From: Candidatus Bathyarchaeota archaeon
Lineage (GTDB): Archaea > Thermoproteota > Bathyarchaeia > Bathyarchaeales > Bathycorpusculaceae
DNA length: 40,115 bases
Reading direction: 5' to 3'
NCBI GenBank assembly: GCA_963733095.1
Contig: CAVTBV010000015.1
Span: 1 to 40,115, forward strand
Positions 30,053-40,115 of this stretch are shown one piece after another; positions within the stretch are counted from its first letter, which is position 1, and every line of letters begins with the position of its first letter. Under the pieces are notes generated by a model. That model ran no database searches. It saw only the letters and a program-made list of their open reading frames with translations, and was not told the DNA's origin. The translations under genes were made by a program, and so were the position numbers.

Positions 30053-30499
30053 AAATATTCCTCTTTTTTCTCTTTTTATTTTTTTGCAAATGATTTAGTA
30101 TATGGAATCAGCAAAACTTAAGTATATTCTGTATTAAGACACATCTGTTAATAGAGGATTTGGAATTATGGACCGCACATATGTACTACCCTGCCGGAAA
30201 GCAAGTTTTAAAATTCTGCTTTAATATGGTTTAAAGGTTTACAACAAAGTGAATTAACCAAAGATTTAGCCAAACCATGCCAATCCACCTTTTTAATGTT
30301 CTTATTAGCGTTTATAATTGTTATAGTGATTGGTATTTTAATTTGGAAATTTACAACTTCAAAAAAATCATAAAACAAAGATGCATGTAGTTCATTTTAA
30401 AAGGAAATCGATCTAGCCGAATTTCAATGTACCAATAGATAAAATCCAAATGGATAACCTATTACACAAGGCTTGTCGCCCAACAGCAAACGAAGAGTT

Positions 30500-30521
30500 T
30501 GGCGTGCGGGGAGGGATTTGA
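30500..30521 (+). repeat. att-like direct repeat of the tRNA 3' end
   Basis: TGGCGTGCGGGGAGGGATTTGA; 19/20 identical to 40096-40115. Confidence 0.8.
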
Positions 30522-30759
30522 TCCTATGCTCTAAGAGAGATTTCACCCAAAAATCCCTTTTTTTCTTGTTTATAACAAAATACTAAAATTTTTCTTAATT
30601 TCAACTAAGGATTGCAGATTATACGAACGGTATCCTCTATCGTGCTTCCTGTGGGAAGACTCATCAATCCTGGAATATCCAATAGACGGATGGCGGATTG
30701 GCGATTGGTTTCCGCAATAATATATTTGGCGCTCCTCCTTGCCAGCATCACTTACAGCT

Positions 30760-30889
30760 AAGGTATTCCAAAATCGGGAAGTATGGAGGAAACTGAGTCT
30801 TCCGCCAAATATCTTATTATCGGAACCTGCAAATAAATAATAATATTCAAGCTGTTTGTCTCTATGCCGCCTGTTTTTCGGAAGACCTT
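30760..30889 (+). repeat. ~130-bp palindromic cassette-boundary element R1
   Basis: AAGGTATTCC...CTTCCG..TTATTATCGGAACC...CTAT...GGAAGACCTT. Confidence 0.8.
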
Positions 30890-31281
30890 TGCCCAGTACA
30901 GTGTTTTTTGCTTGGAAAACTTTTCTAAAAAGGGTTTTTGCAGCTAGATTGCCCATAATCCTCATGTGAGGTGTTCCAGGCTAGCTGGTTTGCCCTGGCC
31001 TTTTACCTAGGCTTCTTATAATTTAGTTATTGGGTTTTTGGAGGCGTGTCTTTGTTGAGTCATGTTTTTATTGTTTGTTGGGCCGCTTTGGATAGTCGCC
31101 TTTTTTGCCTCCGAATTGTTCTGCGGTTTTTCTGAGTTGTCTGGGATGTCAATGTTGTTGCGGCCCAATTTTCTTCATTTGTTTTTGCTGGTTAGATGTT
31201 GTTGAAGTAAGCGAGTGGCCAATTTTTGTTTTTGATTTTTCTGTTTGTCATGTTTTGTTCCCGCTTATTCACATTAGTATA

Positions 31282-31322
31282 TAAGTGTATACATGCTTAT
31301 AAGTGTATGTGTTTAAGTGTAT
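31282..31322. promoter_or_regulatory. Triple direct repeat TAAGTGTAT, candidate operator
   Basis: Copies at 31282, 31300 and 31314. Confidence 0.5.
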
Positions 31323-31365
31323 AAAATGTCCATTGACTCTGCAATGTACGCTGTTTTCGGGCATG

Positions 31366-31497
31366 AAGGCCTTCCGTCGATTGGGGGATATAGTGGGAAA
31401 GGTTTTCACGCTTTAAGCTTATCATCAGAACCTATAAAATACAATAATTATTTTTGAATCTGACTTATCCTATGGCGCCCGATTCGTGGAAGACCTT
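31366..31497 (+). repeat. ~130-bp element R2
   Basis: AAGGCCTTCC...TTATCATCAGAACCTATAAAAT...TGACTTATCCTATGG...GGAAGACCTT. Confidence 0.9.
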
Positions 31498-31508
31498 TTG
31501 CTTTTAAC

Positions 31509-31823
31509 TCATTTCTGCCTTTGACCCACTATAGTGCAATTCGTAGCTAAAGCCGCTATGGCTCCAATCGCGGCAAGCCAGGGAACTAGGACAATTCCTA
31601 TAACTCCGACTGTAACGGGAATGTCGAGCAGAGTTTTGCCTTCTTCGCTCTTTATAGTTATTCGCCTGACATTTCCTTCATGAAACAATTCTTTGACTTT
31701 CTGGACCAAGTCTTCAGAGGAAACAGAAAAGCTCTCTTCCTCCATTCCAATGGGTGTTCCGCAGTTTGGGCAGAATTTCGTGTCGTCAGATATCTCTTTT
31801 CCACATTTATTGCAAAATGGCAT
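31509..31823 (-). CDS. Zinc-ribbon + DUF4342 domain protein
   Basis: FCNKCG...FCPNCG; LV.KVKEL.HEGNVRRI.IK...LLDIP.TVG. Confidence 0.88.
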   Translation of the reverse strand: MPFCNKCGKEISDDTKFCPNCGTPIGMEEESFSVSSEDLVQKVKELFHEGNVRRITIKSEEGKTLLDIPVTVGVIGIVLVPWLAAIGAIAALATNCTIVGQRQK

Positions 31824-31890
31824 CGGGTTTATCTCCTGAGTTGAGGTCGTCAGTCTCTCTTTATATCCTTTTTGATGCTGCTATGTGCGT

Positions 31891-32211
31891 AAGGCCTTCC
31901 AAAATCTGAACTAAACGATTTGCTCTAACTTTGTGCGCTTGAAATGCTCAACTTGGTTATTATTTTCCTCTTCATTGAGCGATCTGACTTGACCGCCGCC
32001 AAAACGAAATTTCTTTTTAGTTTCCATTGGATAATTCACCACTCAAAACACGTTTTATATAACAATGATGAAAAACACTGATAAACTTGGTGGTAAGGCC
32101 CACAGTAGTGAAGAGGTCTTCCGTCTGAAATCTATTCGCCAGAACATATAAAATAAAATAAATAATTTCGAGTTTGACTCTCTCTATCCAGCCCAATCGG
32201 TGACAGACCTT
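31891..32211 (+). repeat. Element R3, split (left end 31891-31908; remainder ~32095-32211)
   Basis: AAGGCCTTCCAAAATCTG, ~186-bp insert, then ...GGTCTTCCGTCTGAAAT..CAGAACATATAAAAT...GACAGACCTT. Confidence 0.75.
31911..32027 (-). CDS. 38-aa microprotein inside split R3
   Basis: METKKKFRFGGGQVRSLNEEENNNQVEHFKRTKLEQIV; GGTGA SD and TTATATAAAA box upstream on minus strand. Confidence 0.5.
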   Translation of the reverse strand: METKKKFRFGGGQVRSLNEEENNNQVEHFKRTKLEQIV

Positions 32212-32296
32212 GGCCCAATCATTGCTAACCATCCAAGTCAATTGTGCACAAATAATAAAAGAAAAGACCGATAAACTGAATTTAGAGGAAAGCTTA

Positions 32297-33312
32297 TTGG
32301 ATGTTGCTTTGGCGGCAAGGATCTTTCTAATCGCAGTTTTGATGCTGGCTGCATTTGACATTCAGACCGCAGAGTCCCAGTCGAGTTTCATTGATAACTT
32401 TGATTCCCCAACTTTAGGAACTGAGTGGAACGTGATTGACGATGCGGGCGGTTCAACATTTGGTTTGTCCGTCCATCCAGGGTGGCTGAGAATCACGACA
32501 ACCACGCCGCCTACAAGGGACCTAAAAAATGATCGAGTTGTTTCTAACACCTTGGCTCCAAGAATTATGCTGTCAGGCGTCAGCGATGATTTCACAATTG
32601 AGACCAAGATTGAAAGTACAATGAATAGCACTGGTGAAGCAGCTGGAATCCTCGTTTGGGCAGACAATACGCGATTTATCTGGCTATCAAAATATTTTAA
32701 CAGGCTTTCTGGAAGCGAGACTATGTATTGTGGGCAGAACGATGGAATCGAAGTCTTGGGCGGTTATAACACCTCGAATCCAATCTATTTGAGAATGAGC
32801 AGAAACGGCACCCTTTTTACCTCTTATTTTAGTTATGATGGAATCAAATGGACTATGTACCATATATTTCATTTCTATTACCTCGATTACAATTTTCTCC
32901 ACGCTCCGTTGATGTTGGATTATACATAACGAATGGCAACTCAAGCATAAGCAGCTTCTCGGCTGACTTTGACTATTTCAATATGACTCTCTCGACTCCA
33001 AGCCCTACTCCAACCCCAACTCCTTCGCCAACCGCAACTCCCTCGCAAACAGCAACTATGCCTACTTTAACTCCAACCGCAACGTCCAGCCAAACATCAA
33101 TGCCCAATCCAACAACCAGTCCATTCCCAACTCCTACTATTCCAGAGTTTTCTTCAATTCTTTGGTTGTTTGTTGCGATAGTCCCAATTGTAATCCTTTT
33201 CAAAACACTCGATTCAAAAATTGCCAGAAGAAAGATGAGAAGTGCTGACATAAGATGCTCTCGCTTCTGTCATAGTATCATTGCGAGGCTTTGTCCAGAA
33301 TTTTTTCGATAG
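32297..33312 (+). pseudogene. Frameshifted ConA-like (DUF1349/beta-xylosidase C-terminal-like) PEF-CTERM surface protein
   Basis: Domain starts in ORF 32210-32929 (DNFDS..L...W; YLR..R.G..F..Y.S.DG..W) and ends in ORF 32848-33312 (VGLY..ADFDYF, PT linker, IPEF-TM). Confidence 0.8.
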
Positions 33313-33423
33313 AAGAGGCATTAAAAGCCTTGACTCTCCTTGGAATAAACGATTTCTCTAGTTTATTCCCAGACCTCATGCGAAAAGACGGATACCAGTA
33401 CAAGTTCTGAACCTGGCGCAATC

Positions 33424-33557
33424 AAGGCCCTCCGAAATTTGGGAGGTATAGCGGGAATAAGGTTTTCCGGGTTTTACCTTATTATAAGAACCTATAAAAT
33501 GAATATTATTTATTTTGATTTGGCTTATCCTATGGTGCCAGATTTTTGAAAGGACTC
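33424..33557 (+). repeat. ~130-bp element R4
   Basis: AAGGCCCTCC...TTATTATAAGAACCTATAAAAT...CTTATCCTATGGTGCC...GAAAGGACTC. Confidence 0.85.
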
Positions 33558-33573
33558 AGTCAAACATTTATTG

Positions 33574-35283
33574 TTAATTCCTTTGGGGCAAACGTACTAA
33601 GAAGGTCGTTCCTTTGCCTTCTTGGCTCTCGAAAGTTACGGTGCCACCCAATGCTTCAGTCATGCGTTTAATAACGACTAAGCCGAACCCTTGGCCTTTC
33701 GATTTAGTTGTAAACATTGGCGTAAATAATTTGCCTTTAACTGCTTCGGGGATACCAACTCCTGTATCCTTAACGCTTATGATAGTATCGTTTGCTTCTT
33801 TGCAGGTAAGTATGGTTAGTTCACCACCATTTGGCATGGCTTGAACTGCGTTATTTATTAGATTGTAGATGATGCGGTTCATGAAAGTGGAGTCAGCTGC
33901 AACTTTTTCTGCTTTCACATTAATGGTTACCTTGATGTTTTCGGGCAAACCGTTCTTAACCAGCAAGTCATCAATTACTCCCTTGAGATTGGTTTCCTCT
34001 ACATTCGGTTTAAGCGGTCTGGCGAAATCTTGCAGATCTTGAACGATTTTGTTAATATAATTGGTGTTTTTTTCAATCTCAGTTAGGCTTTCTTGAATAT
34101 TGTCTTTCATTTCGCTTTCTGGAATGGCTGCCAATTCTGTTTTAGCTAAGTAAACATCGCCCGTTATAGCTTGAAGTGGATTGCGGATATCATGCCCAAC
34201 CATACCCGCAGTTGCACCGATAGCAGCTAACCGCTCAGAATCTTTAAGCTGTTTGGTGCGTTCTTCAACAAGTCTCTCTAAACTATTTTGATATTCCTCA
34301 AGCTTCTCTTCAGCTTTCTTACGTTCAGTAATATCTTGAACCATGGATAATACGCCAATTACGGAATTATCTTCTCTTTTGAGGGGGGTGTTGCTCCAAG
34401 AGCAAGTTATCAGTTTACCTTTTTTGGTTAAATTGTCATTAACGATATTTGCTGTCTCATCTCCTTCGAGTAATCGCCGCCAGATTTCTTCTACAACGGG
34501 TTGGGCTTCTTTGGGAACAATAGTTCCGTAGGGCTGTTTGCCAATGATTTCTTTTGTAGAATATCCAAAAATGGTTTCTGCAGCAGGATTCCACGAAGTA
34601 ACCCTGAAGTCTTTATCCCAGACAATACAGCCAATTGGCATCCTCTTAATCTGCAACTCCAACTGATTCTTGGCTTCTTTCAACTCTTTTTCATTTTCTT
34701 CCAGCATCCCAAGCATTTGGCTGTTGGCTAGGGCAATCGAGGCAAGTTCTCCAAATGCCATCGCCATTTCAGCGTCTCGTTTTGTAAATCCGCCTTCTTT
34801 GTTAGCCAGCCCAATTACTCCGACTGTTCTCTGTTCAATTTTTAACGGCGCAAATAGTACGCTATCGAGTTGTACGTGACCTTTGGGCGAGAATTTTTGC
34901 CATTCACTCTGTGGGAAATCATTTTCAATCGCCACTTTCCCAGAGTTGTAGGCTTCAGCACGGAGTCCGCGAATAGGCATTGGGAGTGAAGGATCAACGG
35001 TGCAGGGAAGCCCTCCTGAGTCCAAAAATAGAACTATGTTTTCTTTTCCGTTGTCGCTTAAGAGTGCAACATAACCAGCGATTGCGCCGATTAGTTCTTT
35101 ACAGGCGTCAAATATTGCTCGAGCAGAATCGGGGAATTCTTTGTTTTGCAAAACTGCCCTTGATGCCTTCAATAAAGATGAAATCTCAGACTCATGCCTT
35201 CGTGATTCGTTGAGAGATGTAGCTAATTCCGGTTCTATTTTCTTGGGTCCGTTAAGTCTAGCTCGCGCTCGCTTTTTAGACAT
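33574..35283 (-). CDS. GAF-PAS sensor histidine kinase
   Basis: GHDIRNPL H-box, NAVQAM, DTGVG, FTPMFTTK, GQGFGL; PAS WNPAAETIFGY; start MSKKRAR inferred. Confidence 0.93.
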   Translation of the reverse strand: MSKKRARARLNGPKKIEPELATSLNESRRHESEISSLLKASRAVLQNKEFPDSARAIFDACKELIGAIAGYVALLSDNGKENIVLFLDSGGLPCTVDPSLPMPIRGLRAEAYNSGKVAIENDFPQSEWQKFSPKGHVQLDSVLFAPLKIEQRTVGVIGLANKEGGFTKRDAEMAMAFGELASIALANSQMLGMLEENEKELKEAKNQLELQIKRMPIGCIVWDKDFRVTSWNPAAETIFGYSTKEIIGKQPYGTIVPKEAQPVVEEIWRRLLEGDETANIVNDNLTKKGKLITCSWSNTPLKREDNSVIGVLSMVQDITERKKAEEKLEEYQNSLERLVEERTKQLKDSERLAAIGATAGMVGHDIRNPLQAITGDVYLAKTELAAIPESEMKDNIQESLTEIEKNTNYINKIVQDLQDFARPLKPNVEETNLKGVIDDLLVKNGLPENIKVTINVKAEKVAADSTFMNRIIYNLINNAVQAMPNGGELTILTCKEANDTIISVKDTGVGIPEAVKGKLFTPMFTTKSKGQGFGLVVIKRMTEALGGTVTFESQEGKGTTFLVRLPQRN

Positions 35284-35416
35284 AGGTCTGATCTCTTGTG
35301 CTGTGGTTATCCTTAGTGTCCGAAATAATAAAAGCTTGGGGAAAATCAATGCCTCTGGTCCATCTGTATCTTATGACGCAAATTGCTCTTAAAACATCTA
35401 ATGGCCTTGTCAACTG

Positions 35417-35550
35417 AAGGCCTTCCAAATTCTGGGTCCTATAATATGAAGCGGGTCTTCCGTCTAAAATTTAATCATCAGAACTTATAAAATAGAATAA
35501 TTATTTTTGGATCTGACTTATCCTATGGTGCACAATCTGTGGAATGCCTT
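35417..35550 (+). repeat. ~130-bp element R5
   Basis: AAGGCCTTCC...AATCATCAGAACTTATAAAAT...TGACTTATCCTATGG...GGAATGCCTT. Confidence 0.9.
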
Positions 35551-35596
35551 CGAAAACTTTTAAGCTTGCTGTTTCAGTTCTTTGTGTGGGATATTC

Positions 35597-36133
35597 ATGG
35601 ATTTTATGGATGTTATATCGGCAAGGAAAAGTATTCGACGTTACGTGGATAAGCCGGTTGAGGAAGAAAAGCTCACGAAAGTTCTCGAGACGGCAAGGTT
35701 GGCGCCTTCATGGGCGAATAAACAATGTTGCAGATACATCGTTGTGAAGGATAAAGCCAAAATTCAAGAGTTGGCGGGCGGCTTAAACGGCTGGCTCAAG
35801 CAGGCGCCAGTTATAGTAGTTGCATGCGCTGATCCTAAAGATTCTGGCGACCGAAACGGCATGAACTATTACCTTGTGGATGTGGGCATATCAATGCAGC
35901 AGCTGGTTTTAGTGGCCACCAATTTAGAACTTGGGACTTGCTGGATTGGCGCCTTCGATGAAGCAAAAGTCAAAAAAGCTTTGGGGGTTCCGGAAAACAT
36001 CAAGGTTGTGGCGATGACTCCTTTAGGGTACCCTGCAGAAAAAGAGGGCATCGGCAGCAAACTCATAAAGACCGCAATCGGAAGCGGCAAAAGAAAACCT
36101 CTCAAAGAAATCGTTCATTACGAAAAATGGTGA
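35597..36133 (+). CDS. Nitroreductase family protein
   Basis: RKSIRRY, APSWANKQ, LGTCWIGAF, PLGYP, RKPL.EIV. Confidence 0.93.
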   Translation: MDFMDVISARKSIRRYVDKPVEEEKLTKVLETARLAPSWANKQCCRYIVVKDKAKIQELAGGLNGWLKQAPVIVVACADPKDSGDRNGMNYYLVDVGISMQQLVLVATNLELGTCWIGAFDEAKVKKALGVPENIKVVAMTPLGYPAEKEGIGSKLIKTAIGSGKRKPLKEIVHYEKW

Positions 36134-36177
36134 AGCTAGCGGGTGCCCGAACAATGTTCGTTGTGTCTGGGGCGACT

Positions 36178-36309
36178 AAGACCTTCCAGAAGTTGGGTGG
36201 TATAGAGTGAGAAAGCCTTGCCGGAAAATAACATCATCAGAACACATAAAAAACAAAATTTTATTTCAGGGTTGATTCTTTCTATTCGCCCCAATCGGCG
36301 ACAGACTTC
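36178..36309 (+). repeat. ~130-bp element R6
   Basis: AAGACCTTCC..TTGGG..TATAG...ATCATCAGAAC...CTAT..CCCAAT..GACAGACTTC. Confidence 0.85.
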
Positions 36310-36342
36310 TGCCCAATCAGTGTACTTTGTTCGCCAATTGCT

Positions 36343-36681
36343 TTATTTTACTCTATAATCGGTAGAGATTGAGTTGTAAGGATTCTGGTTCTCTCTTCGC
36401 TCAGCAGTGTCTTTCATTTCCTCAACGATTTGGTCAATACTTGCCCCGGAAGATAAGATTCCCAAAACGATTGACCGTGATAATAGCTCAAGTTTTTCAT
36501 TATCTGCGTTGACCTTGATCTCAAGAATTGTCATCTCTTTATCAGTCACATAAAGCTCTACAACACCGTCTTTAGGGCGTTCTTCGGGAATTCCTCGCAC
36601 AAGTATTGCGTAATAATCCCGTTTTCCCCTTGCAAAGAGGCTTCCGTCTGAGTCAACGGTTGTCCAATTTAATGTTGCCAA
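36343..36681 (-). CDS. Hypothetical protein
   Basis: 112-aa ORF, TTG start after GGGAGAG. Confidence 0.65.
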   Translation of the reverse strand: MATLNWTTVDSDGSLFARGKRDYYAILVRGIPEERPKDGVVELYVTDKEMTILEIKVNADNEKLELLSRSIVLGILSSGASIDQIVEEMKDTAERRENQNPYNSISTDYRVK

Positions 36682-36828
36682 TTGCTTTCTCTCCCTTGAC
36701 TTTGAGTGTTGAAGTCTTTGCGCTTCCTGCCCTCAACTTATCTGCTTATTTGTAGTATAGGTGCTTTGTTCTTTTAAAGTTAAACAGACCGACTTATCAA
36801 AATCAGAATCTGCACTATACACGCGCAC

Positions 36829-36958
36829 GAGGCCCCTACTCTGAGGGGTATAGTGGAAGGAGAATGTTATCCGCAAAATAGTTTATCATCAGAACATTTG
36901 AAAATCAAATAAATAAATTCAAACTTATCAACTCTGTAACCTCCGTCCGACAGGCCTT
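36829..36958 (+). repeat. ~130-bp element R7
   Basis: GAGGCCCC..GGGGTATAG...TCCG..TTATCATCAGAAC...GACAGGCCTT. Confidence 0.8.
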
Positions 36959-36988
36959 GGCTCCTTCATTGCATGCATGGTACAATCG

Positions 36989-37201
36989 TCATGGCTTATA
37001 GATAACGCAAACTCCCATGTCCTTTCTTAGACGCCACATTAAGCCTCGTTGAGCAATGAAATTCTGCAAGTCGGGGCTACAATCAACCTTCATAACAAGT
37101 TCAAATTTGCCCTTGTTTTCTCTGACGTAAACGGCTGACGGCTGCGCAAGCTCCAGAGTTATAATCTCCTTTACCAGTGCTACTGCTTGATGCCTTTCCA
37201 A
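36989..37201 (-). CDS. Small hypothetical protein
   Basis: 70-aa ORF; TTATATA box ~35 bp upstream. Confidence 0.7.
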   Translation of the reverse strand: MERHQAVALVKEIITLELAQPSAVYVRENKGKFELVMKVDCSPDLQNFIAQRGLMWRLRKDMGVCVIYKP

Positions 37202-37524
37202 GTGTAAGCCCCAAACTTCTTATCGGTTGATTTTGTATATAACGGTTTAGCGAATTTCAATGTATGATGTATCGATTTTAACCCGAAATTTTTCCGGGAA
37301 ATTTTCGGATGCGCCTATACAAACGAGCCAAGCGGTTCCACGCATTTAACATTTCTGCCTAAGTGGATTTTCAATGAACGGATTTTAGATCTTTTTGACA
37401 GTGGCTGCTCGATTATCGGGGGTGTCGGTCATTTGCCATTCTAAGGTGTCAAGATCGTTCTTAAGCCTTCAAGCTCCCCATTCCGTTGGGCAAGGCGATA
37501 AAACATTGATGGTTAGATCGAACA

Positions 37525-37875
37525 TTATTTTTGAGGTTGAAACAACGGTCGCGGGTCGAACAACACTCTGATTGAGCTTATTTTACCATTTTGCATTTGA
37601 TACAATCCGCATGCGAACACAACCACCTGTCGCGCGCTGAAGTTTATATCGTAGATAATGCAAACGTCGTTTCTTTCAGAAAACACCTTTTTGGCATCAT
37701 ATTTTAAGCGGAGAGGCTCAAGTCCTTTGAAATAAGCATCAGCGCCCTCAAGGGGCGATCCATCAGGCGCGTAGAAAGACACATTATCCGTTACGTAACT
37801 TCTGGCGTTTATGTAGTCTTGCTATTGTATCGCCTTCAAAAATAATAAAACGATTTCTTTTGTGTTTGAATTCAT
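37525..37875 (-). pseudogene. SnoaL/NTF2-like protein with in-frame TAG at codon 18
   Basis: MNSNTKEIVLLFLKAIQ*QDYINARSYVTDNVSF...NGKISSIRVLFDPR. Confidence 0.75.
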
Positions 37876-38299
37876 AAAAATCATGTATTTGTGAATAATT
37901 TTGAAATATATGACTTCTTCTTCCGAGTTTTTGGACACAAAAATTAATTAGGTTAACTTTCGAACGACGGAAACGCGTTCTCCGTTTACAACTTCTATTC
38001 GCCCTTCAAGCGTGTCGCCTGTTGCAAGGTTCAAGAATTCATCTATTCCTTCCTGTATTGTTTTCCTCAACGACTTTGATTTCGGCGCTAACAAATTTCC
38101 GAAAACGCAAATAAACCTCGACTCAAAACGGGCGGGGATAGCTATGGACTCTCGTTTGAACCCTCGGGTATGGGGTGGGTCGTACCGGACTTACCCCCGA
38201 ATCATCCGATTTATATAGAATTTGCAATTATTCGAGGCGATTGCTGCTTTGTGCAAAAGCTTTTGTATCACATGCTTTGAATAATGGATTGGGGTAAAT

Positions 38300-39154
38300 A
38301 TGCCGAAATTTCAAGTATACAAAGATACTGCAGGCAAACACCGTTTTCGCCTCCGAGCAGACAACAATAAAATCGTAGCTGTAGGAGAAGCATACGAACA
38401 ATACGCAGGCTGCATAAACGGCATCAAGAGCATACAGAAAAATTCCAAAGCGCCAGTTGAAGATATCACAGTTGAAGGGCAACGATTTTCAAACCCAAAA
38501 TTCCAGGTTTACAAAGACAATGCTGGAAAGTTTAGGTTCCATCTATACGCAAGAAACGGCGAGATCATTGCCGATAGTAGCGAAGGATATGAGACCAAAG
38601 ATGCTTGCTTTAATGGCATTGATGTAGTAGGGCAAAGTGGCGATGCTGAAATCAAGGACCTGACTGAATCCGAAGAATCAACTGCAGAAAAGACCCAAGA
38701 TGCTTCACCGACAATTTCTGCAGAAACGAAGACACCCCAAAGTATTGAGATGTCTAAACCTGAAGTGATCAAAATGGATAAAGAAGACGAAATATTAGCA
38801 GAGTTAAAAAAAATTAGTGCAGCTTTAGAAAAAGCTCCGCCACCAACACCGCCAAAAGGCTTTGTGAACGAGTTCAAGGATTTTTTGTCAAAGTACAAGA
38901 TATTTGGCTTAGCTGTTGCTTTCATCTTAGCTTTGTATGCTGGCATTTTAATTCAGGCACTTGTTAAAGACTTCATCATTCCTCTCTTAGGCTTAGCAAT
39001 CCCGGGAATGGCAAACCTAGCCACGTATGCAGTTGGCGTTATGAGTCAGTCATTTGGCGTAGGAGACTTTCTAGTAGCACTAATAACTTTCATTATAGTG
39101 GCATTAATAGTGTTCGTTATAGTGAAAGTAGCCAAGAAATGGCACATAGAATAA
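38300..39154 (+). CDS. Fusion of tandem DUF1508 (YegP-like) domains with an MscL-family mechanosensitive channel
   Basis: Two KFQVYKD.AGK.RF.L.A.N..I.A..E.Y repeats; then EFKDFL.KY...GLAVAFI...LVKD.I.P...G.FL.ALI.F.I. Confidence 0.85.
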   Translation: MPKFQVYKDTAGKHRFRLRADNNKIVAVGEAYEQYAGCINGIKSIQKNSKAPVEDITVEGQRFSNPKFQVYKDNAGKFRFHLYARNGEIIADSSEGYETKDACFNGIDVVGQSGDAEIKDLTESEESTAEKTQDASPTISAETKTPQSIEMSKPEVIKMDKEDEILAELKKISAALEKAPPPTPPKGFVNEFKDFLSKYKIFGLAVAFILALYAGILIQALVKDFIIPLLGLAIPGMANLATYAVGVMSQSFGVGDFLVALITFIIVALIVFVIVKVAKKWHIE

Positions 39155-39572
39155 ATCCCTTCTTTTCTTCCTTATTTTTTTATTCTAAGATGTAAGTCAA
39201 GACATCTAGCATTAGAAGTTGGTGCTCAAATTATTTATTGACCTAGCACCTAATAGTTTATGATAGGCTAAGAGAATAGCAAAGTTTTCCATTAGACAAA
39301 AGGCAAGGAAATATCCTTTTAGATTCAAGAAATTTTATCTCACTAAAAGAAACAGCGCCTAAGCAACCATAGAAACATATCATAGTCCTAGGCAATACTC
39401 TTTTTTATAGAGTGCATTGTTTGTGTCACAAGGGATGAATTGACTATTTAGTGCATATCCGACGGATAGAGCACATATTTAGCTGATTCAAGTTAGTGCT
39501 TGTAACAAAACTTAAATTAGCAATAATGTTAAACCAATTGATACTTTTAGCTTTTTTTAGGAGGTGATTTCT

Positions 39573-39674
39573 TTGAAATGTGGTCTTTGCAAAGGTGAAG
39601 TTAAGGAGCAATCCAAAATAACAGATGATGGAAAATGTTCAAACTGTGGTGCCAAACTGGCAGTTGCCAAATAA
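39573..39674 (+). CDS. 33-aa zinc-finger microprotein, not in ORF track
   Basis: MKCGLCKGEVKEQSKITDDGKCSNCGAKLAVAK; perfect GGAGGTGA SD; T-rich terminator follows. Confidence 0.7.
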   Translation: MKCGLCKGEVKEQSKITDDGKCSNCGAKLAVAK

Positions 39675-39803
39675 ATTCTAAAGTGCCAACGTTATTATTC
39701 CCTTTTTTATTTAATTTTTTCTTCACGCTCCAATTTTGTTCTTTAATGGTCATTAAATAGGTCTTCTAGTACTCTGGTCAGCTCCAAACTAGGAATTATC
39801 TGT

Positions 39804-40115
39804 ATGAAGATTAAGTGTGTACAAGCTAAGTGTGAGATATGTGGTAAGTTAGCTTCAATTCAAGTTTTCTATAATAAGCGTGGCACAGCAAAGTATGCTA
39901 GAGCTAGACATTATGTAGGTAGAGAGAATGGTAAACCTAAGTTTGAATATCACCAACAATCGCTAGAATATATTCAGGTAGAAATCAGTAAGATTCCTAA
40001 AGTTAATCCTACTAATACCTTAGAGATTGGTCATGTTGGTCAAAGAATGGATATTGACCTAGAGAAGCTAGAATTAACCTCTAAACTAGATACTGTGGCG
40101 GGCGGGGAGGGATTT
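39804..40115 (+). CDS. Partial ORF reading into the tRNA; candidate N-terminal fragment of a split SSV-type integrase
   Basis: 104 open codons MKIKCVQAKCEICGK...RHY...HQQ...TVAGGEGF, no stop before window end. Confidence 0.6.
   Translation, partial: MKIKCVQAKCEICGKLASIQVFYNKRGTAKYARARHYVGRENGKPKFEYHQQSLEYIQVEISKIPKVNPTNTLEIGHVGQRMDIDLEKLELTSKLDTVAGGEGF
40096..40115 (-). tRNA. 3' end of a tRNA gene (truncated by window; isotype undetermined)
   Basis: Reverse complement AAAT-CCCTC-CCCGCCC-G-CCA = T-loop end, T-stem, acceptor stem, discriminator, CCA. Confidence 0.75.

What the first reader, a model, noticed from the sequence alone, without database searches (positions are those of the whole stretch)
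30760..36958. Array of seven co-oriented ~130-bp palindromic elements, each separating a cargo gene: candidate non-integron gene-cassette system
Seen: seven diverged copies at 30760, 31366, 31891/32095, 33424, 35417, 36178 and 36829. The six intact ones are 130-134 bp, all seven share one orientation, and I found none elsewhere in the window. The approximate shared layout is AAGGCCTTCC-N-TTGGG-N-TATAG ... TTCCG-N-ATCATCAGAAC-TATAAAAT-AT-rich ... CTAT-N-CCCAAT-N-GGAAGRCCTT, so ~30-bp imperfect terminal inverted repeats enclose an asymmetric core. Unrelated single genes in either orientation lie next to the copies (DUF4342, ConA-like surface protein, histidine kinase, nitroreductase, hypotheticals). 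Four minus-strand genes stop only 12-34 bp from a repeat end. Known: integron attC arrays and pdif modules have this gene-site-gene layout, but these ends lack the attC RYYYAAC/GTTRRRY consensus. Inference: these are recombination sites of an undescribed archaeal cassette-capture system whose recombinase is encoded elsewhere. Conserved length and symmetry despite sequence drift argue for selection on structure.
Basis: partly seen in the sequence, partly recalled or inferred. Interest (0 to 1): 0.92.

Follow-up and report, generated by a model that had tools for sequence, protein, structure and literature searches.

The report
Polar gene-cassette arrays in Bathyarchaeia
A peat-soil archaeon carries rows of single genes separated by copies of one 130-base repeat, all pointing the same way towards a tRNA gene. 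This looks like a gene-capture platform that does not use integron-type sites, but the enzyme that would move the genes was not found.

Summary
Seven co-oriented 130-134-bp elements lie at the stated coordinates, one of them split by a 187-bp insert.

- **Distribution:** the genome holds about 18 copies in five clusters. The family occurs in 14 of 36 genomes of the genus and 0 of 24 from other genera of the order.
- **Array properties:** across Bathyarchaeia MAGs, 110 of 111 neighbouring copies share a strand. The median gap is 663 bp. Copies have no target-site duplications and no attC-type ends.
- **Polarity:** a tRNA gene lies within 3 kb beyond the right end in 12 of 71 arrays, and beyond the left end in 0 of 69.
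- **Evidence for recombination:** left and right halves assort almost independently (r = 0.16). True half-elements mostly break at a 13-bp core, TTATCATCAGAAC. One lone cassette is bounded by that core on both sides. The same small genes recur in different arrays in different order.
- **Not supported:** The arms are conserved as sequence, with no covariation.

Best reading (about 0.5): double-stranded recombination sites of a non-integron cassette system inside tRNA-linked islands, probably worked by a tyrosine recombinase. No dedicated recombinase was identified.

Main rival (about 0.3): a promoter-bearing repeat shuffled by homologous recombination, because the core also looks like a BRE/TATA promoter.

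The parts
30500..30523 (-). Direct repeat of the 3' end of tRNA-Arg(CCT). It marks the far border of a roughly 9.6-kb tRNA-linked island that holds the array.
   Evidence: it matches the last ~23 nt of the tRNA-Arg gene at C14 4955-5081 (= window 40096 onward) with 1-2 mismatches. A similar ~65-nt stretch lies at C9 109584-109646. ARAGORN finds no whole tRNA in the window.
30760..30889 (+). Element 1 (130 bp); core at 30814-30826.
   Evidence: From about 30828 on, its right half and the following 465 bp are 97% identical to C10 10820-10271, whereas its left half is about 60% identical.
30903..31355 (-). Cargo 1: small-gene segment 'X', with an ATG at 31270 on the minus strand and a promoter-like triple repeat at 31277-31330.
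   Evidence: copies at C10 (97%), C9 (88%) and C13 372 kb (70%). No Pfam family for ORF 31016-31168.
31366..31497 (+). Element 2 (132 bp); core at 31419-31431.
   Evidence: From the core rightwards it is about 99% identical to C9 119.2 kb. Its left half is about 55% identical to that copy.
31509..31823 (-). Cargo 2: Zn-ribbon + DUF4342 protein (104 aa).
   Evidence: Pfam, (DUF4342 E = 2.4e-27). Duplicated at C9 118.8-119.1 kb together with the flanking half-elements.
31891..32211 (+). Element 3, split. Left-arm stub at 31891-31908; unique 187-bp insert at 31909-32094 with a 38-codon minus-strand ORF; remainder at about 32095-32211 with the core at 32133-32145.
   Evidence: The insert has no other copy in the genome or in the fetched loci. 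The C9 paralogue has the uninterrupted left half.
32210..33312 (+). Cargo 3: ConA-like secreted or surface protein, read in two overlapping frames (32210-32929 and 32848-33312), with a Pro/Thr-rich linker.
   Evidence: GH43_C2 E = 2.3e-15; DUF1349.
33424..33557 (+). Element 4 (134 bp); core at 33479-33491.
33574..35349 (-). Cargo 4: GAF-PAS-HisKA-HATPase histidine kinase (591 aa).
   Evidence: Pfam. Many paralogues in the genome.
35417..35550 (+). Element 5 (134 bp); core at 35472-35484.
35582..36133 (+). Cargo 5: nitroreductase (183 aa).
   Evidence: Pfam, (E = 1.6e-32). A homologue follows an element in the same relative position in another genome (L024).
36178..36309 (+). Element 6 (132 bp); core at 36231-36243.
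36343..36681 (-). Cargo 6: 112-aa ORF with no known family.
   Evidence: no Pfam, NCBIfam or PHROG match.
36829..36958 (+). Element 7 (130 bp, the most diverged); core at 36883-36895.
36989..37201 (-). 70-aa ORF just past the last element. Its homologues sit beside elements in two other genomes.
   Evidence: family 17: G010:C6 and G023:C11.
40096..40115 (-). 3' end of the intron-containing tRNA-Arg(CCT) gene, which runs off the window. The right ends of the elements face it.
   Evidence: C14 4955-5081; C15 35141-40115 overlaps C14 1-4975.

Best explanation
Each 130-bp element is a double-stranded site-specific recombination site. It has a left arm, a roughly 13-bp crossover core (TTATCATCAGAAC) next to an AT-rich stretch, and a right arm. 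The arms carry three copies of a 10-bp motif (AAGGYCTTCC): two direct copies in the left half and one inverted copy at the right end. These probably bind protein.

A mobile unit would be a circle carrying one gene and one complete site. Recombination between its core and a core already in the chromosome inserts the order core-right arm-gene-left arm-core. Repeated insertions then build a co-oriented array in which every site is a hybrid of two parents. The arrays lie inside islands integrated at the 3' ends of tRNA genes.

The enzyme is most likely one of the genome's many tyrosine recombinases acting in trans.

Shown: array anatomy, polarity, mosaicism, core breakpoints, and variable cargo.
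Inferred: the circular intermediate, crossover within the core, and the class of enzyme.
For: 1. Clustering and co-orientation. The genome holds about 18 copies in 5 clusters. Of 111 distinct neighbouring pairs in 79 Bathyarchaeia loci plus this genome, 110 share a strand, with a median gap of 663 bp.
2. Polarity. A tRNA gene lies within 3 kb beyond the right end in 12 of 71 arrays, 11 of them with the tRNA 3' end facing the array, against 0 of 69 beyond the left end. Integrase-like sequence is found in 12 of 71 downstream flanks against 3 of 69 upstream (junctions).
3. Mosaic sites. In the window, 30828-31355 is 97% identical to C10 while the left half of element 1 is about 60% identical. 31419-31907 is about 99% identical to C9 while the left half of element 2 is about 55% identical. 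Over 15,225 pairs of 175 copies, left- and right-half identities correlate at only r = 0.155. Of 13 pairs with right halves at least 90% alike, 7 have left halves at most 70% alike. Of 29 pairs with left halves at least 90% alike, 21 have right halves at most 70% alike.
4. Half-elements joined to unrelated DNA end or begin at the core. Left halves: L083, L098 twice, L115, L001 6659 and C9 118714. Right halves: L077, L065 and L083. One lone DUF5752-like cassette (G002:C9 7356-7892) has the order core+right arm, gene, left arm+core. Its outer flank begins at exactly the same nucleotide as a conserved flank in five other genomes, which carry TTAT/TTGT there.
5. The same small genes recur in arrays at different loci and in different species, in different order. 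Examples are a wHTH pair, a DUF5752-like gene, an AsnC-ligand-domain gene, a nitroreductase and ORFans. The tRNA-Cys and tRNA-Thr loci hold different cargo in different species.
6. In the most recent duplicate pair (cargo 98%, L081/L109) the inner halves are 0.90 and 0.98 alike and the outer halves 0.68 and 0.67.
7. No target-site duplication was found. No serine recombinase and no Y1 transposase was found in the genome, but there are 20 tyrosine-recombinase matches.
Against: 1. No recombinase is consistently linked. Integrase-like sequence is near only 12 of 71 arrays and is mostly in fragments. The three array-adjacent integrase N-terminal fragments compared are only 31-45% identical to each other. 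None lies next to an array in this genome, and nothing element-like lies near this genome's integrases.
2. Breakpoints are not all at the core. Exceptions are the left end of element 2 (about 31357), position ~111 of a right arm (G016 C5/C4) and position ~32 (G010 C11). The nearly identical 'X' cargo (99%) shares its upstream right half (0.93) but not its downstream left half (0.66).
3. Over all 76 homologous cassette pairs the flanking halves are at background. L_up is 0.716 against 0.686, R_up 0.711 against 0.675, L_down 0.713 against 0.707, and R_down 0.669 against 0.676.
4. The core resembles BRE/TATA promoters upstream of this genome's tRNA genes. Its conservation, and its use as a hot spot for homologous recombination, therefore need no recombinase.
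5. Some arrays end in complete elements, not half-sites.
6. No excision or circle junction has been observed.
Confidence: 0.5

Rival explanations
1. The element is a promoter-bearing intergenic repeat, a MITE-like or 'mobile promoter' module. Its conserved core is a BRE/TATA box. Arrays, mosaic halves and shuffled cargo then arise by ordinary homologous or microhomology recombination between the nearly identical cores of co-oriented copies in tRNA-linked junk islands. No dedicated site-specific recombinase is involved.
For: - The core CAGAAC-ATATAAAAT resembles the motifs about 30-40 nt upstream of this genome's tRNA genes, such as AGAAAC-TTTAAAA and GAAACC-TTTAAAT types.
- The core plus TATA stretch is the only long, near-invariant segment, so it is the place where homologous exchange would fall.
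- Breakpoints also occur elsewhere in the element.
- Flanking halves of homologous cassettes are at background identity.
- No linked recombinase was found.
- The element does have ~29-bp terminal inverted repeats, as MITEs do.
Against: - 110 of 111 neighbouring pairs are co-oriented, and the tRNA polarity is strict: 12 of 71 against 0 of 69. Neither is expected of promoters or MITEs.
- Cargo genes lie in either direction, 44 antisense and 38 sense, so the promoter would face the wrong way for half of them.
- There are no target-site duplications.
- No near-identical copies and no autonomous partner were seen in the genome-wide profile search.
- Half-elements are joined to unrelated DNA at the core, and the lone cassette has the circularly permuted order right half-gene-left half. 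This needs only 4-6 nt of shared sequence, too little for homologous recombination.
Confidence: 0.3
2. Each element is a small non-coding RNA gene or a structured UTR/terminator element that accompanies island genes.
For: - A promoter-like core lies inside the element.
- Stop codons of neighbouring genes abut the element ends.
- Two copies fold into a long hairpin with z of about -2.
Against: - There is no Rfam match, even at E up to 1.
- RNAalifold finds no consensus structure.
- The arm-arm pairing shows no covariation beyond shuffles on 150 copies.
- Other copies fold no better than shuffles, with z from -0.0 to -1.3.
- Strand-independent inverted-repeat conservation and half-element junctions are not RNA properties.
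Confidence: 0.07
3. It is a diverged but genuine integron: an attC array (CALIN) of the kind already reported in archaeal MAGs.
For: - The layout is gene-site-gene, with site length inside the attC range.
- Integrons and integrase-less attC clusters have been reported in 75 archaeal MAGs, including Thermoproteota (PMC9668308, passages read).
Against: - 0 of 175 copies have the RYYYAAC/GTTRRRY ends.
- There is no structural covariation, whereas attC sites keep structure rather than sequence (recalled).
- The inferred crossover is central, not at the site's 3' end.
- Cargo orientation is mixed.
- The only integron-type hit is a weak sub-threshold match of one integrase fragment to the XerA/integron-integrase NCBIfam model, 33 bits against a cut-off of 220.
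- IntegronFinder and HattCI could not be run here.
Confidence: 0.03

Closest known systems
Integron cassette arrays, especially sedentary chromosomal integrons with ~125-bp family-like attC repeats (Vibrio VCRs; recalled) and the archaeal attC clusters of PMC9668308
   Same: Single genes alternate with co-oriented imperfect-palindromic sites of about 130 bp. Unit length is 0.4-1.1 kb. Cargo is mostly of unknown function. Content varies between relatives. Arrays often lack a neighbouring integrase.
   Different: There is no attC end consensus (0 of 175) and no conserved fold. The sites look like double-stranded sites with a central core. Genes face either way and seem to keep their own upstream regions. 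Arrays are anchored at tRNA 3' ends, not at an attI beside intI. The family is restricted to one genus.
Tandem accretion of integrative elements and integrase-less cis-mobilizable elements (CIMEs) at tRNA genes (recalled from work on Streptococcus ICEs; no paper read). Tandem integrated archaeal elements are mentioned in PMC8371274 (passage read).
   Same: Units are bounded by att-type sites with a common core and stacked head-to-tail at a tRNA 3' end. Most units lack their own integrase. Integrase genes or fragments lie at the tRNA-proximal side.
   Different: Units here are single genes of about 0.5-1 kb rather than elements of several kb. The repeated site is unrelated to the tRNA sequence. 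The same site family serves arrays at tRNA-Cys, -Thr, -Arg and -Ala.
pdif / Xer-dependent modules of Acinetobacter plasmids (recalled)
   Same: Single-gene modules are bounded by short recombination sites used by a recombinase encoded elsewhere.
   Different: pdif sites are 28 bp and alternate in orientation (recalled). Here the sites are 130 bp and co-oriented. No dif-like 11-6-11 arrangement was evident in the core, though this was judged by eye only (dif architecture from PMC8371274).
MITEs, including archaeal ones
   Same: Size is about 130 bp, with terminal inverted repeats of about 29 bp, no coding capacity and multiple copies.
   Different: There is no target-site duplication and no dispersed or random-orientation copies. 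Copies are only about 66-69% alike. The two halves assort independently. No autonomous partner was seen in the genome-wide profile search.

Membership tests
   of 175 distinct full copies, 1 has RYYYAAC in the first 32 nt, 1 has GTTRRRY in the last 32 nt, and 0 have both on either strand.
Integron (attC array / CALIN) | Conserved single-strand hairpin with little sequence conservation | tested here: not met
   no consensus structure; 73.4% of cells paired against 73.6% in shuffles; covariation score 0.134 against 0.134 (150 copies, 26 pairs).
Integron (attC array / CALIN) | IntI integrase with attI beside the array | tested here: inconclusive
   No tyrosine recombinase lies in the window. The 20 PF00589 matches lie elsewhere in the genome. 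In other genomes integrase-like sequence follows 12 of 71 arrays, mostly as fragments. One fragment hits the XerA/integron-integrase model at 33 bits against a cut-off of 220. The IntI-specific extra domain was not examined.
Integron (attC array / CALIN) | Cassette ORFs mostly co-oriented with the array | tested here: not met
   longest ORF in 84 inter-element gaps is 44 antisense, 38 sense and 2 with none.
MITE | Terminal inverted repeats | tested here: met
   about 21 of 29 terminal positions are matched in the consensus, read by eye from the consensus.
MITE | Target-site duplication | tested here: not met
   mean longest shared word between a copy's own flanks is 3.25, against 3.27 for shuffled partners. 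A shared word of 5 nt or more occurs in 5% of own flanks against 9% of shuffled.
MITE | Dispersed copies in either orientation, copies near-identical, autonomous IS with the same ends | tested here: not met
   5 clusters only; 110 of 111 pairs co-oriented; 66-69% mean column identity. No longer element with these ends turned up in the genome-wide profile search; ends alone were not searched separately.
IS200/IS605-derived palindromic elements (PATE) | Y1 (HUH) transposase in the genome | tested here: not met
   PF01797 has 0 matches in this genome, which is 95% complete.
Xer/dif-type modules (pdif-like) | 28-bp site made of two 11-nt inverted arms around a 6-nt spacer; alternating site orientation | tested here: inconclusive
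   Orientation is uniform, not alternating. No clear 11-6-11 dyad was seen around the core, by eye only on the consensus.
Tandemly accreted integrative elements at tRNA genes | Location at the 3' end of a tRNA gene with a direct repeat of the tRNA end at the far border | tested here: met
   repeat of the tRNA-Arg 3' end at window 30500-30523, with the tRNA-Arg gene starting at window 40096; arrays abut tRNA-Thr, -Cys and -Ala in other genomes.
Tandemly accreted integrative elements at tRNA genes | Each unit bounded by att sites sharing a core; hybrid sites after recombination | tested here: met
   shared 13-bp core, independent assortment of halves (r = 0.155), and half-sites at array or cassette borders. 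The recombination itself was not observed.
Any Rfam RNA family | Match to a curated covariance model | tested here: not met
   (gathering threshold, whole window): 0 matches. (E up to 1, 30400-37300): 0 matches.

The most novel reading that the evidence does not exclude
One genus of peat-soil Bathyarchaeia has its own gene-capture platform, independent of integrons. Single-gene circles carry a 130-bp double-stranded att site. They insert by conservative recombination at a 13-bp core into growing, strictly polar arrays at the 3' ends of tRNA genes. The sites double as outward-facing BRE/TATA promoters. The work is done in trans by a tyrosine recombinase of the archaeal integrase families that crowd this genome.
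Probability: 0.4. Interest if true: 0.85.

Novelty: new variant of a known kind. Interest (0 to 1): 0.72.

Why it matters
Integrons are the only well-understood system that stockpiles single genes as mobile cassettes. In archaea only canonical attC arrays have been reported (PMC9668308). A second, mechanistically different cassette platform would show that gene-cassette capture evolved more than once. This one would have double-stranded sites with a central core, be anchored at tRNA genes, and be restricted to one abundant soil archaeal genus.

It would also give a handle on how uncultured Bathyarchaeia exchange accessory genes. Finally, it would supply a compact new recombination site, and eventually an enzyme, for archaeal genetics.

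Even if the rival holds, the strict polarity and co-orientation of a promoter-bearing repeat would still need a mechanism.

Tried and rejected
- **RNA structure.** Single-copy folds were weak, with z from 0 to -2.1 on both strands of four copies. RNAalifold gave nothing. The covariation count equalled its shuffles.
- **Rfam.** No match at the gathering threshold or at E up to 1.
- **Sequencing runs.** Five DNA runs hold parts of the stretch, the best holding 0.40 of the sampled words. No RNA holder is listed. Laying the Logan contigs of four runs gave only short, low-depth pieces. No joint fell at an element. One loose end at 31907 merely matches the C9 paralogue. This is no evidence either way on excision or expression.
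- **Phage and plasmid collections.** No match to 30700-32300.
- **Viral contigs.** The single exact core match carries no element and is a chance match.
- **Integrases of this genome.** No element-like sequence lies within 2.5 kb of the ten integrases of one paralogue group. One AAGGTCTTCC motif near an integrase at C13 457.6 kb lies in a coding region and was taken as chance.
- **A dedicated 'cassette integrase' lineage.** Three array-adjacent integrase fragments are only 31-45% identical to each other, so this was rejected.
- **Integrase remnants in the window's island.** The ORF over the tRNA-Arg has no significant likeness to integrases. A C-terminal-like stretch at about 30463-30531 reaches only E 0.05-0.15 and is not claimed.
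- **A second breakpoint cluster at element positions 20-32.** Most such hits are complete elements with diverged left arms.
- **Core-to-core co-inheritance across all homologous cassettes.** The flanking halves are at background identity except in the most recent pairs.
- **Empty-site search for the lone cassette.** Both flanks were found in relatives, always with other DNA between them. No empty site was recovered.
- **Literature.** Searches listed no paper describing these elements. I read passages of PMC9668308 and PMC8371274. All other papers were seen only as listings or abstract starts. Supplements were not opened, and data S1/S3 of PMC9668308 might list attC calls in related MAGs.

Full report
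**1.

The window is a whole contig (C15) of a 2.84-Mb, 16-contig genome. Its last 4,975 bases overlap the start of contig C14.

- The repeat finder, direct reading and alignment give six intact elements of 130-134 bp. They lie at 30760-30889, 31366-31497, 33424-33557, 35417-35550, 36178-36309 and 36829-36958.
- The seventh copy is split. Its first 18 bp (31891-31908) are separated from the remainder (about 32095-32211) by a unique 187-bp insert.
- All seven are on the + strand. A profile search of the genome finds no other copy in the window.
The four minus-strand ORFs do end 12-34 bp from a right end.

**2. Anatomy**

A consensus of 175 distinct full-length copies from many genomes shows four conserved blocks.

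- The left end is AAGGCCTTCC, followed by TGGG and TATAG.
- A second AAGGTYTTCC-like motif lies about 36 bp further in.
- A near-invariant core, C-TTATCATCAGAAC-ATATAAAA, is followed by an AT-rich stretch.
- The right arm is CTAT...CCC...GGCCTT, which mirrors the left end.

The terminal octamer AAGGCCTT is itself a palindrome. It is rare in the genome: 23 occurrences in total, 9 of them in elements.

**3. Not a folded structure**

Single copies fold no better, or only slightly better, than shuffles. RNAalifold finds no consensus structure.

I drew the arm-arm hairpin (26 pairs) on an alignment of 150 copies made with a structure-free model. The share of paired cells was 73.4%, against 73.6% in shuffles. 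The covariation score was 0.134 against 0.134.

The symmetry is therefore conserved sequence, as expected of protein-binding repeats. It is not a conserved hairpin. There are no Rfam matches even at E up to 1.

**4. Distribution**

In this genome there are about 18 copies in five clusters.

- The window holds 7.
- C10 at 10-15 kb holds 4, next to tRNA-Cys.
- C9 has one copy at 104 kb.
- C9 at 118.7-119.3 kb has one and a half copies, next to a tRNA 3' fragment.
- C9 at 222-224 kb has 3, next to tRNA-Thr and tRNA-Leu.
- C9 has a partial copy at 256 kb.

A sequence-only covariance model finds the family in 14 of 36 genomes of the same genus and in 0 of 24 genomes from other genera of the order.

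The exact core pattern occurs in 79 stretches of the species-representative genome collection.

- 73 of these stretches carry at least one element, 173 profile hits in all.
- By their record titles, nearly all are Bathyarchaeota/Bathyarchaeia MAGs.
- The six stretches without an element are bacterial chance matches.
- Two short contigs binned as an Acidobacteriota MAG do carry the element.

There is no match in the phage or plasmid collections. The single viral-contig match is a chance match.

**5. Arrays are co-oriented and polar**

Of 111 distinct neighbouring pairs, 110 share a strand. The one exception is in this genome at C9 223 kb. The median gap is 663 bp, and most gaps are 250-1000 bp.

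I examined non-redundant arrays that had at least 1 kb of flank available.

| Feature within 3 kb | Beyond the right end | Beyond the left end |
|---|---|---|
| tRNA gene | 12 of 71 | 0 of 69 |
| Integrase-like sequence | 12 of 71 | 3 of 69 |

- Of the 12 tRNA genes, 11 are on the opposite strand, so the tRNA 3' end faces the array.
- Of the 12 downstream integrase hits, 10 are on the elements' strand.
- Related genomes are not independent, so these counts overstate the statistics. The direction of the effect is still uniform.

In the window the same geometry holds. The elements point towards the intron-containing tRNA-Arg(CCT) gene that starts at window 40096. A 23-nt direct repeat of that tRNA's 3' end lies at 30500-30523. 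The array therefore sits inside a roughly 9.6-kb island of the usual tRNA-integrated kind.

**6. Evidence that the elements recombine at the core**

*(a) Mosaics in the window.*
- From just after the core of element 1 to 10 bp before element 2 (30828-31355), the window is 97% identical to C10, while the left half of element 1 is about 60% identical.
- From the core of element 2 through the DUF4342 gene to the stub of element 3 (31419-31907), it is about 99% identical to C9, while the left half of element 2 is about 55% identical and the preceding cargo is 88% identical.

*(b) Independent assortment of halves.* Over 15,225 pairs of copies, identity of the left halves and of the right halves correlates at only r = 0.155. 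Of 13 pairs with right halves at least 90% alike, 7 have left halves at most 70% alike, and only 2 pairs have both halves at least 90% alike. Of 29 pairs with left halves at least 90% alike, 21 have right halves at most 70% alike.

*(c) Half-elements next to unrelated DNA.*
- Left halves end just after CAG, CAGAAC or CAGAACATA.
- Right halves begin at TTATCATCAG.
- Both kinds therefore keep the core.
- Most apparent truncations at positions 20-32 turned out to be complete elements with diverged left arms.

*(d) A lone cassette.* In G002:C9 a lone cassette has the order core+right arm, DUF5752-like gene, left arm+core. This is the circular permutation expected if a circle with one complete site recombined with a short core-like target. 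Its outer flank is conserved in five other genomes up to exactly the same nucleotide. There those genomes carry TTAT or TTGT followed by unrelated DNA. Its other side adjoins a tRNA-Ala 3' fragment.

*(e) Shared cargo in different order.* Array regions of 8 genomes of the genus, this one included, share small gene families in different order and in different company. These are a wHTH protein with an unknown partner, a DUF5752-like protein, an AsnC-ligand-domain protein, the nitroreductase and several ORFans. The orthologous tRNA-Cys and tRNA-Thr loci hold different cargo in different species.

*(f) No transposon signature.* There is no target-site duplication.

**7. Evidence that weakens the model**

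- Breakpoints are not confined to the core.
- The 99%-identical 'X' cargo shares its upstream right half (0.93) but not its downstream left half (0.66).
- Over all 76 homologous cassette pairs, the four flanking halves are at background identity. Only the youngest pairs show the expected pattern of inner halves alike and outer halves unlike, for example 0.90/0.98 against 0.68/0.67.
- Cargo faces either way, 44 antisense against 38 sense. Stop codons tend to abut an element, and start codons lie 30-150 bp away, so genes seem to keep their own promoters.
- No recombinase is tied to the arrays. The integrase sequences beside them are mostly fragments. Three array-adjacent integrase fragments compared are only 31-45% identical to each other. 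None is adjacent to an array in this genome, and nothing element-like lies near this genome's integrases.
- The genome has 20 tyrosine-recombinase matches, no serine recombinase and no Y1 transposase. If the reaction is site-specific, a tyrosine recombinase acting in trans is therefore the only candidate class found. PF00239 and PF01797 were the only other classes tested here. DDE transposases were not tested in this genome, and one lies within an array region of a relative (L020, G016:C4).
- Contigs of four public metagenome runs showed no informative joints, and no RNA run is listed.

**8. A second meaning of the core**

The 60 nt upstream of this genome's tRNA genes carry BRE/TATA motifs of the type AGAAAC-TTTAAAA or GAAACC-TTTAAAT. 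The core CAGAAC-ATATAAAAT fits that pattern, reading rightwards.

This gives the main rival. On that view the element is a promoter-bearing repeat whose invariant promoter is a hot spot for homologous exchange. The rival explains the conserved core and the ragged breakpoints. It does not explain the near-perfect co-orientation, the tRNA polarity, the junctions of the core with unrelated DNA, or the permuted lone cassette.

The two readings are not exclusive. A recombination site may also carry a promoter.

**9. Comparison with known systems**

- *Integron cassette arrays.* The system works most like these. Archaeal integrons with canonical attC sites are in print (PMC9668308, passages read). 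This family is not a member: no attC ends, no conserved fold, a central crossover, mixed gene orientation and a tRNA anchor.
- *Tandem accretion of integrase-less elements at tRNA genes.* The resemblance is real, but the scale here is single genes and the site is unrelated to the tRNA. This comparison is recalled. PMC8371274 mentions tandem archaeal elements.
- *MITEs.* The family fails the MITE tests other than terminal inverted repeats.
- *Literature.* The searches listed no description of such elements.

**10. Verdict**

This is a real, statistically overwhelming, genus-restricted feature. It is most likely a non-integron cassette array built on double-stranded sites with a 13-bp core (confidence about 0.5). 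The enzyme and the mobile intermediate remain unobserved. I file it as a new variant of a known kind, namely site-specific gene-cassette arrays. Interest is 0.72.

Noticed in passing
window 35141-40115 (= C14 1-4975); also other contig ends: Contig ends of this assembly overlap one another by several kb at about 99.97% identity: C15/C14, C2/C8, C10/C11, C12/C10 and C13/C4. Repeats near contig ends are therefore counted twice unless this is removed.
   Followed up: yes
window 31909-32094: A unique 187-bp insert splits the left arm of element 3. It carries a 38-codon minus-strand ORF with a TATA-like box upstream. AAAWCTKG-like words stand on both sides of it. It has no other copy in the genome or the fetched loci.
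   Followed up: partly
window 31277-31330 and 30903-31355: Upstream of the small minus-strand gene 'X' lies a triple GTGTATA-type repeat that looks like an operator or promoter. The whole 450-bp segment occurs four times in the genome: C15, C10 at 97%, C9 at 88% and C13 at 70%.
   Followed up: partly
window 32210-33312: The ConA-like gene is read in two overlapping frames (239 and 154 aa), with a Pro/Thr-rich linker and a hydrophobic tail. It is either frameshifted or a sequencing error.
   Followed up: no
whole genome; element ends: The palindromic octamer AAGGCCTT, which contains AGGCCT and GGCC, occurs only 23 times in 2.84 Mb, 9 of them in the elements. My rough estimate from base composition is about 40. 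This may be restriction-site avoidance.
   Followed up: no
window 30500-30564; C9 109584-109646; C9 118640-118690; L119 2355-2412; L129 1177-1250: tRNA 3' fragments (Arg, Ala and one unassigned) are each preceded by a similar ~40-nt arm of the type AAAAAGGG...GGGTGAWATCTC...CTT. This is probably the element-borne att arm of one family of tRNA-targeting integrative elements.
   Followed up: partly
L073 5719-5824 and integrases of G000: One integrase paralogue group ends in a conserved tail...LIEAGFE(Y/F)V...(K/Q)(L/I)FRKRK. In L073 the last ~35 codons of such a gene start directly at an element's right end, so that array cuts into an integrase gene.
   Followed up: partly
L062, L087 (genome contigs): Two short contigs (2.4 and 5.0 kb) binned in an Acidobacteriota ('Acidoferrum') MAG carry full elements. 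They are probably archaeal contigs placed in the wrong bin.
   Followed up: partly
window 33574-35349: The histidine kinase in the array has many paralogues at 64-76% DNA identity across at least seven contigs.
   Followed up: no
window 38300-39154: A fusion of two DUF1508 repeats with an MscL-type mechanosensitive channel domain lies between the array and the tRNA-Arg gene.
   Followed up: no
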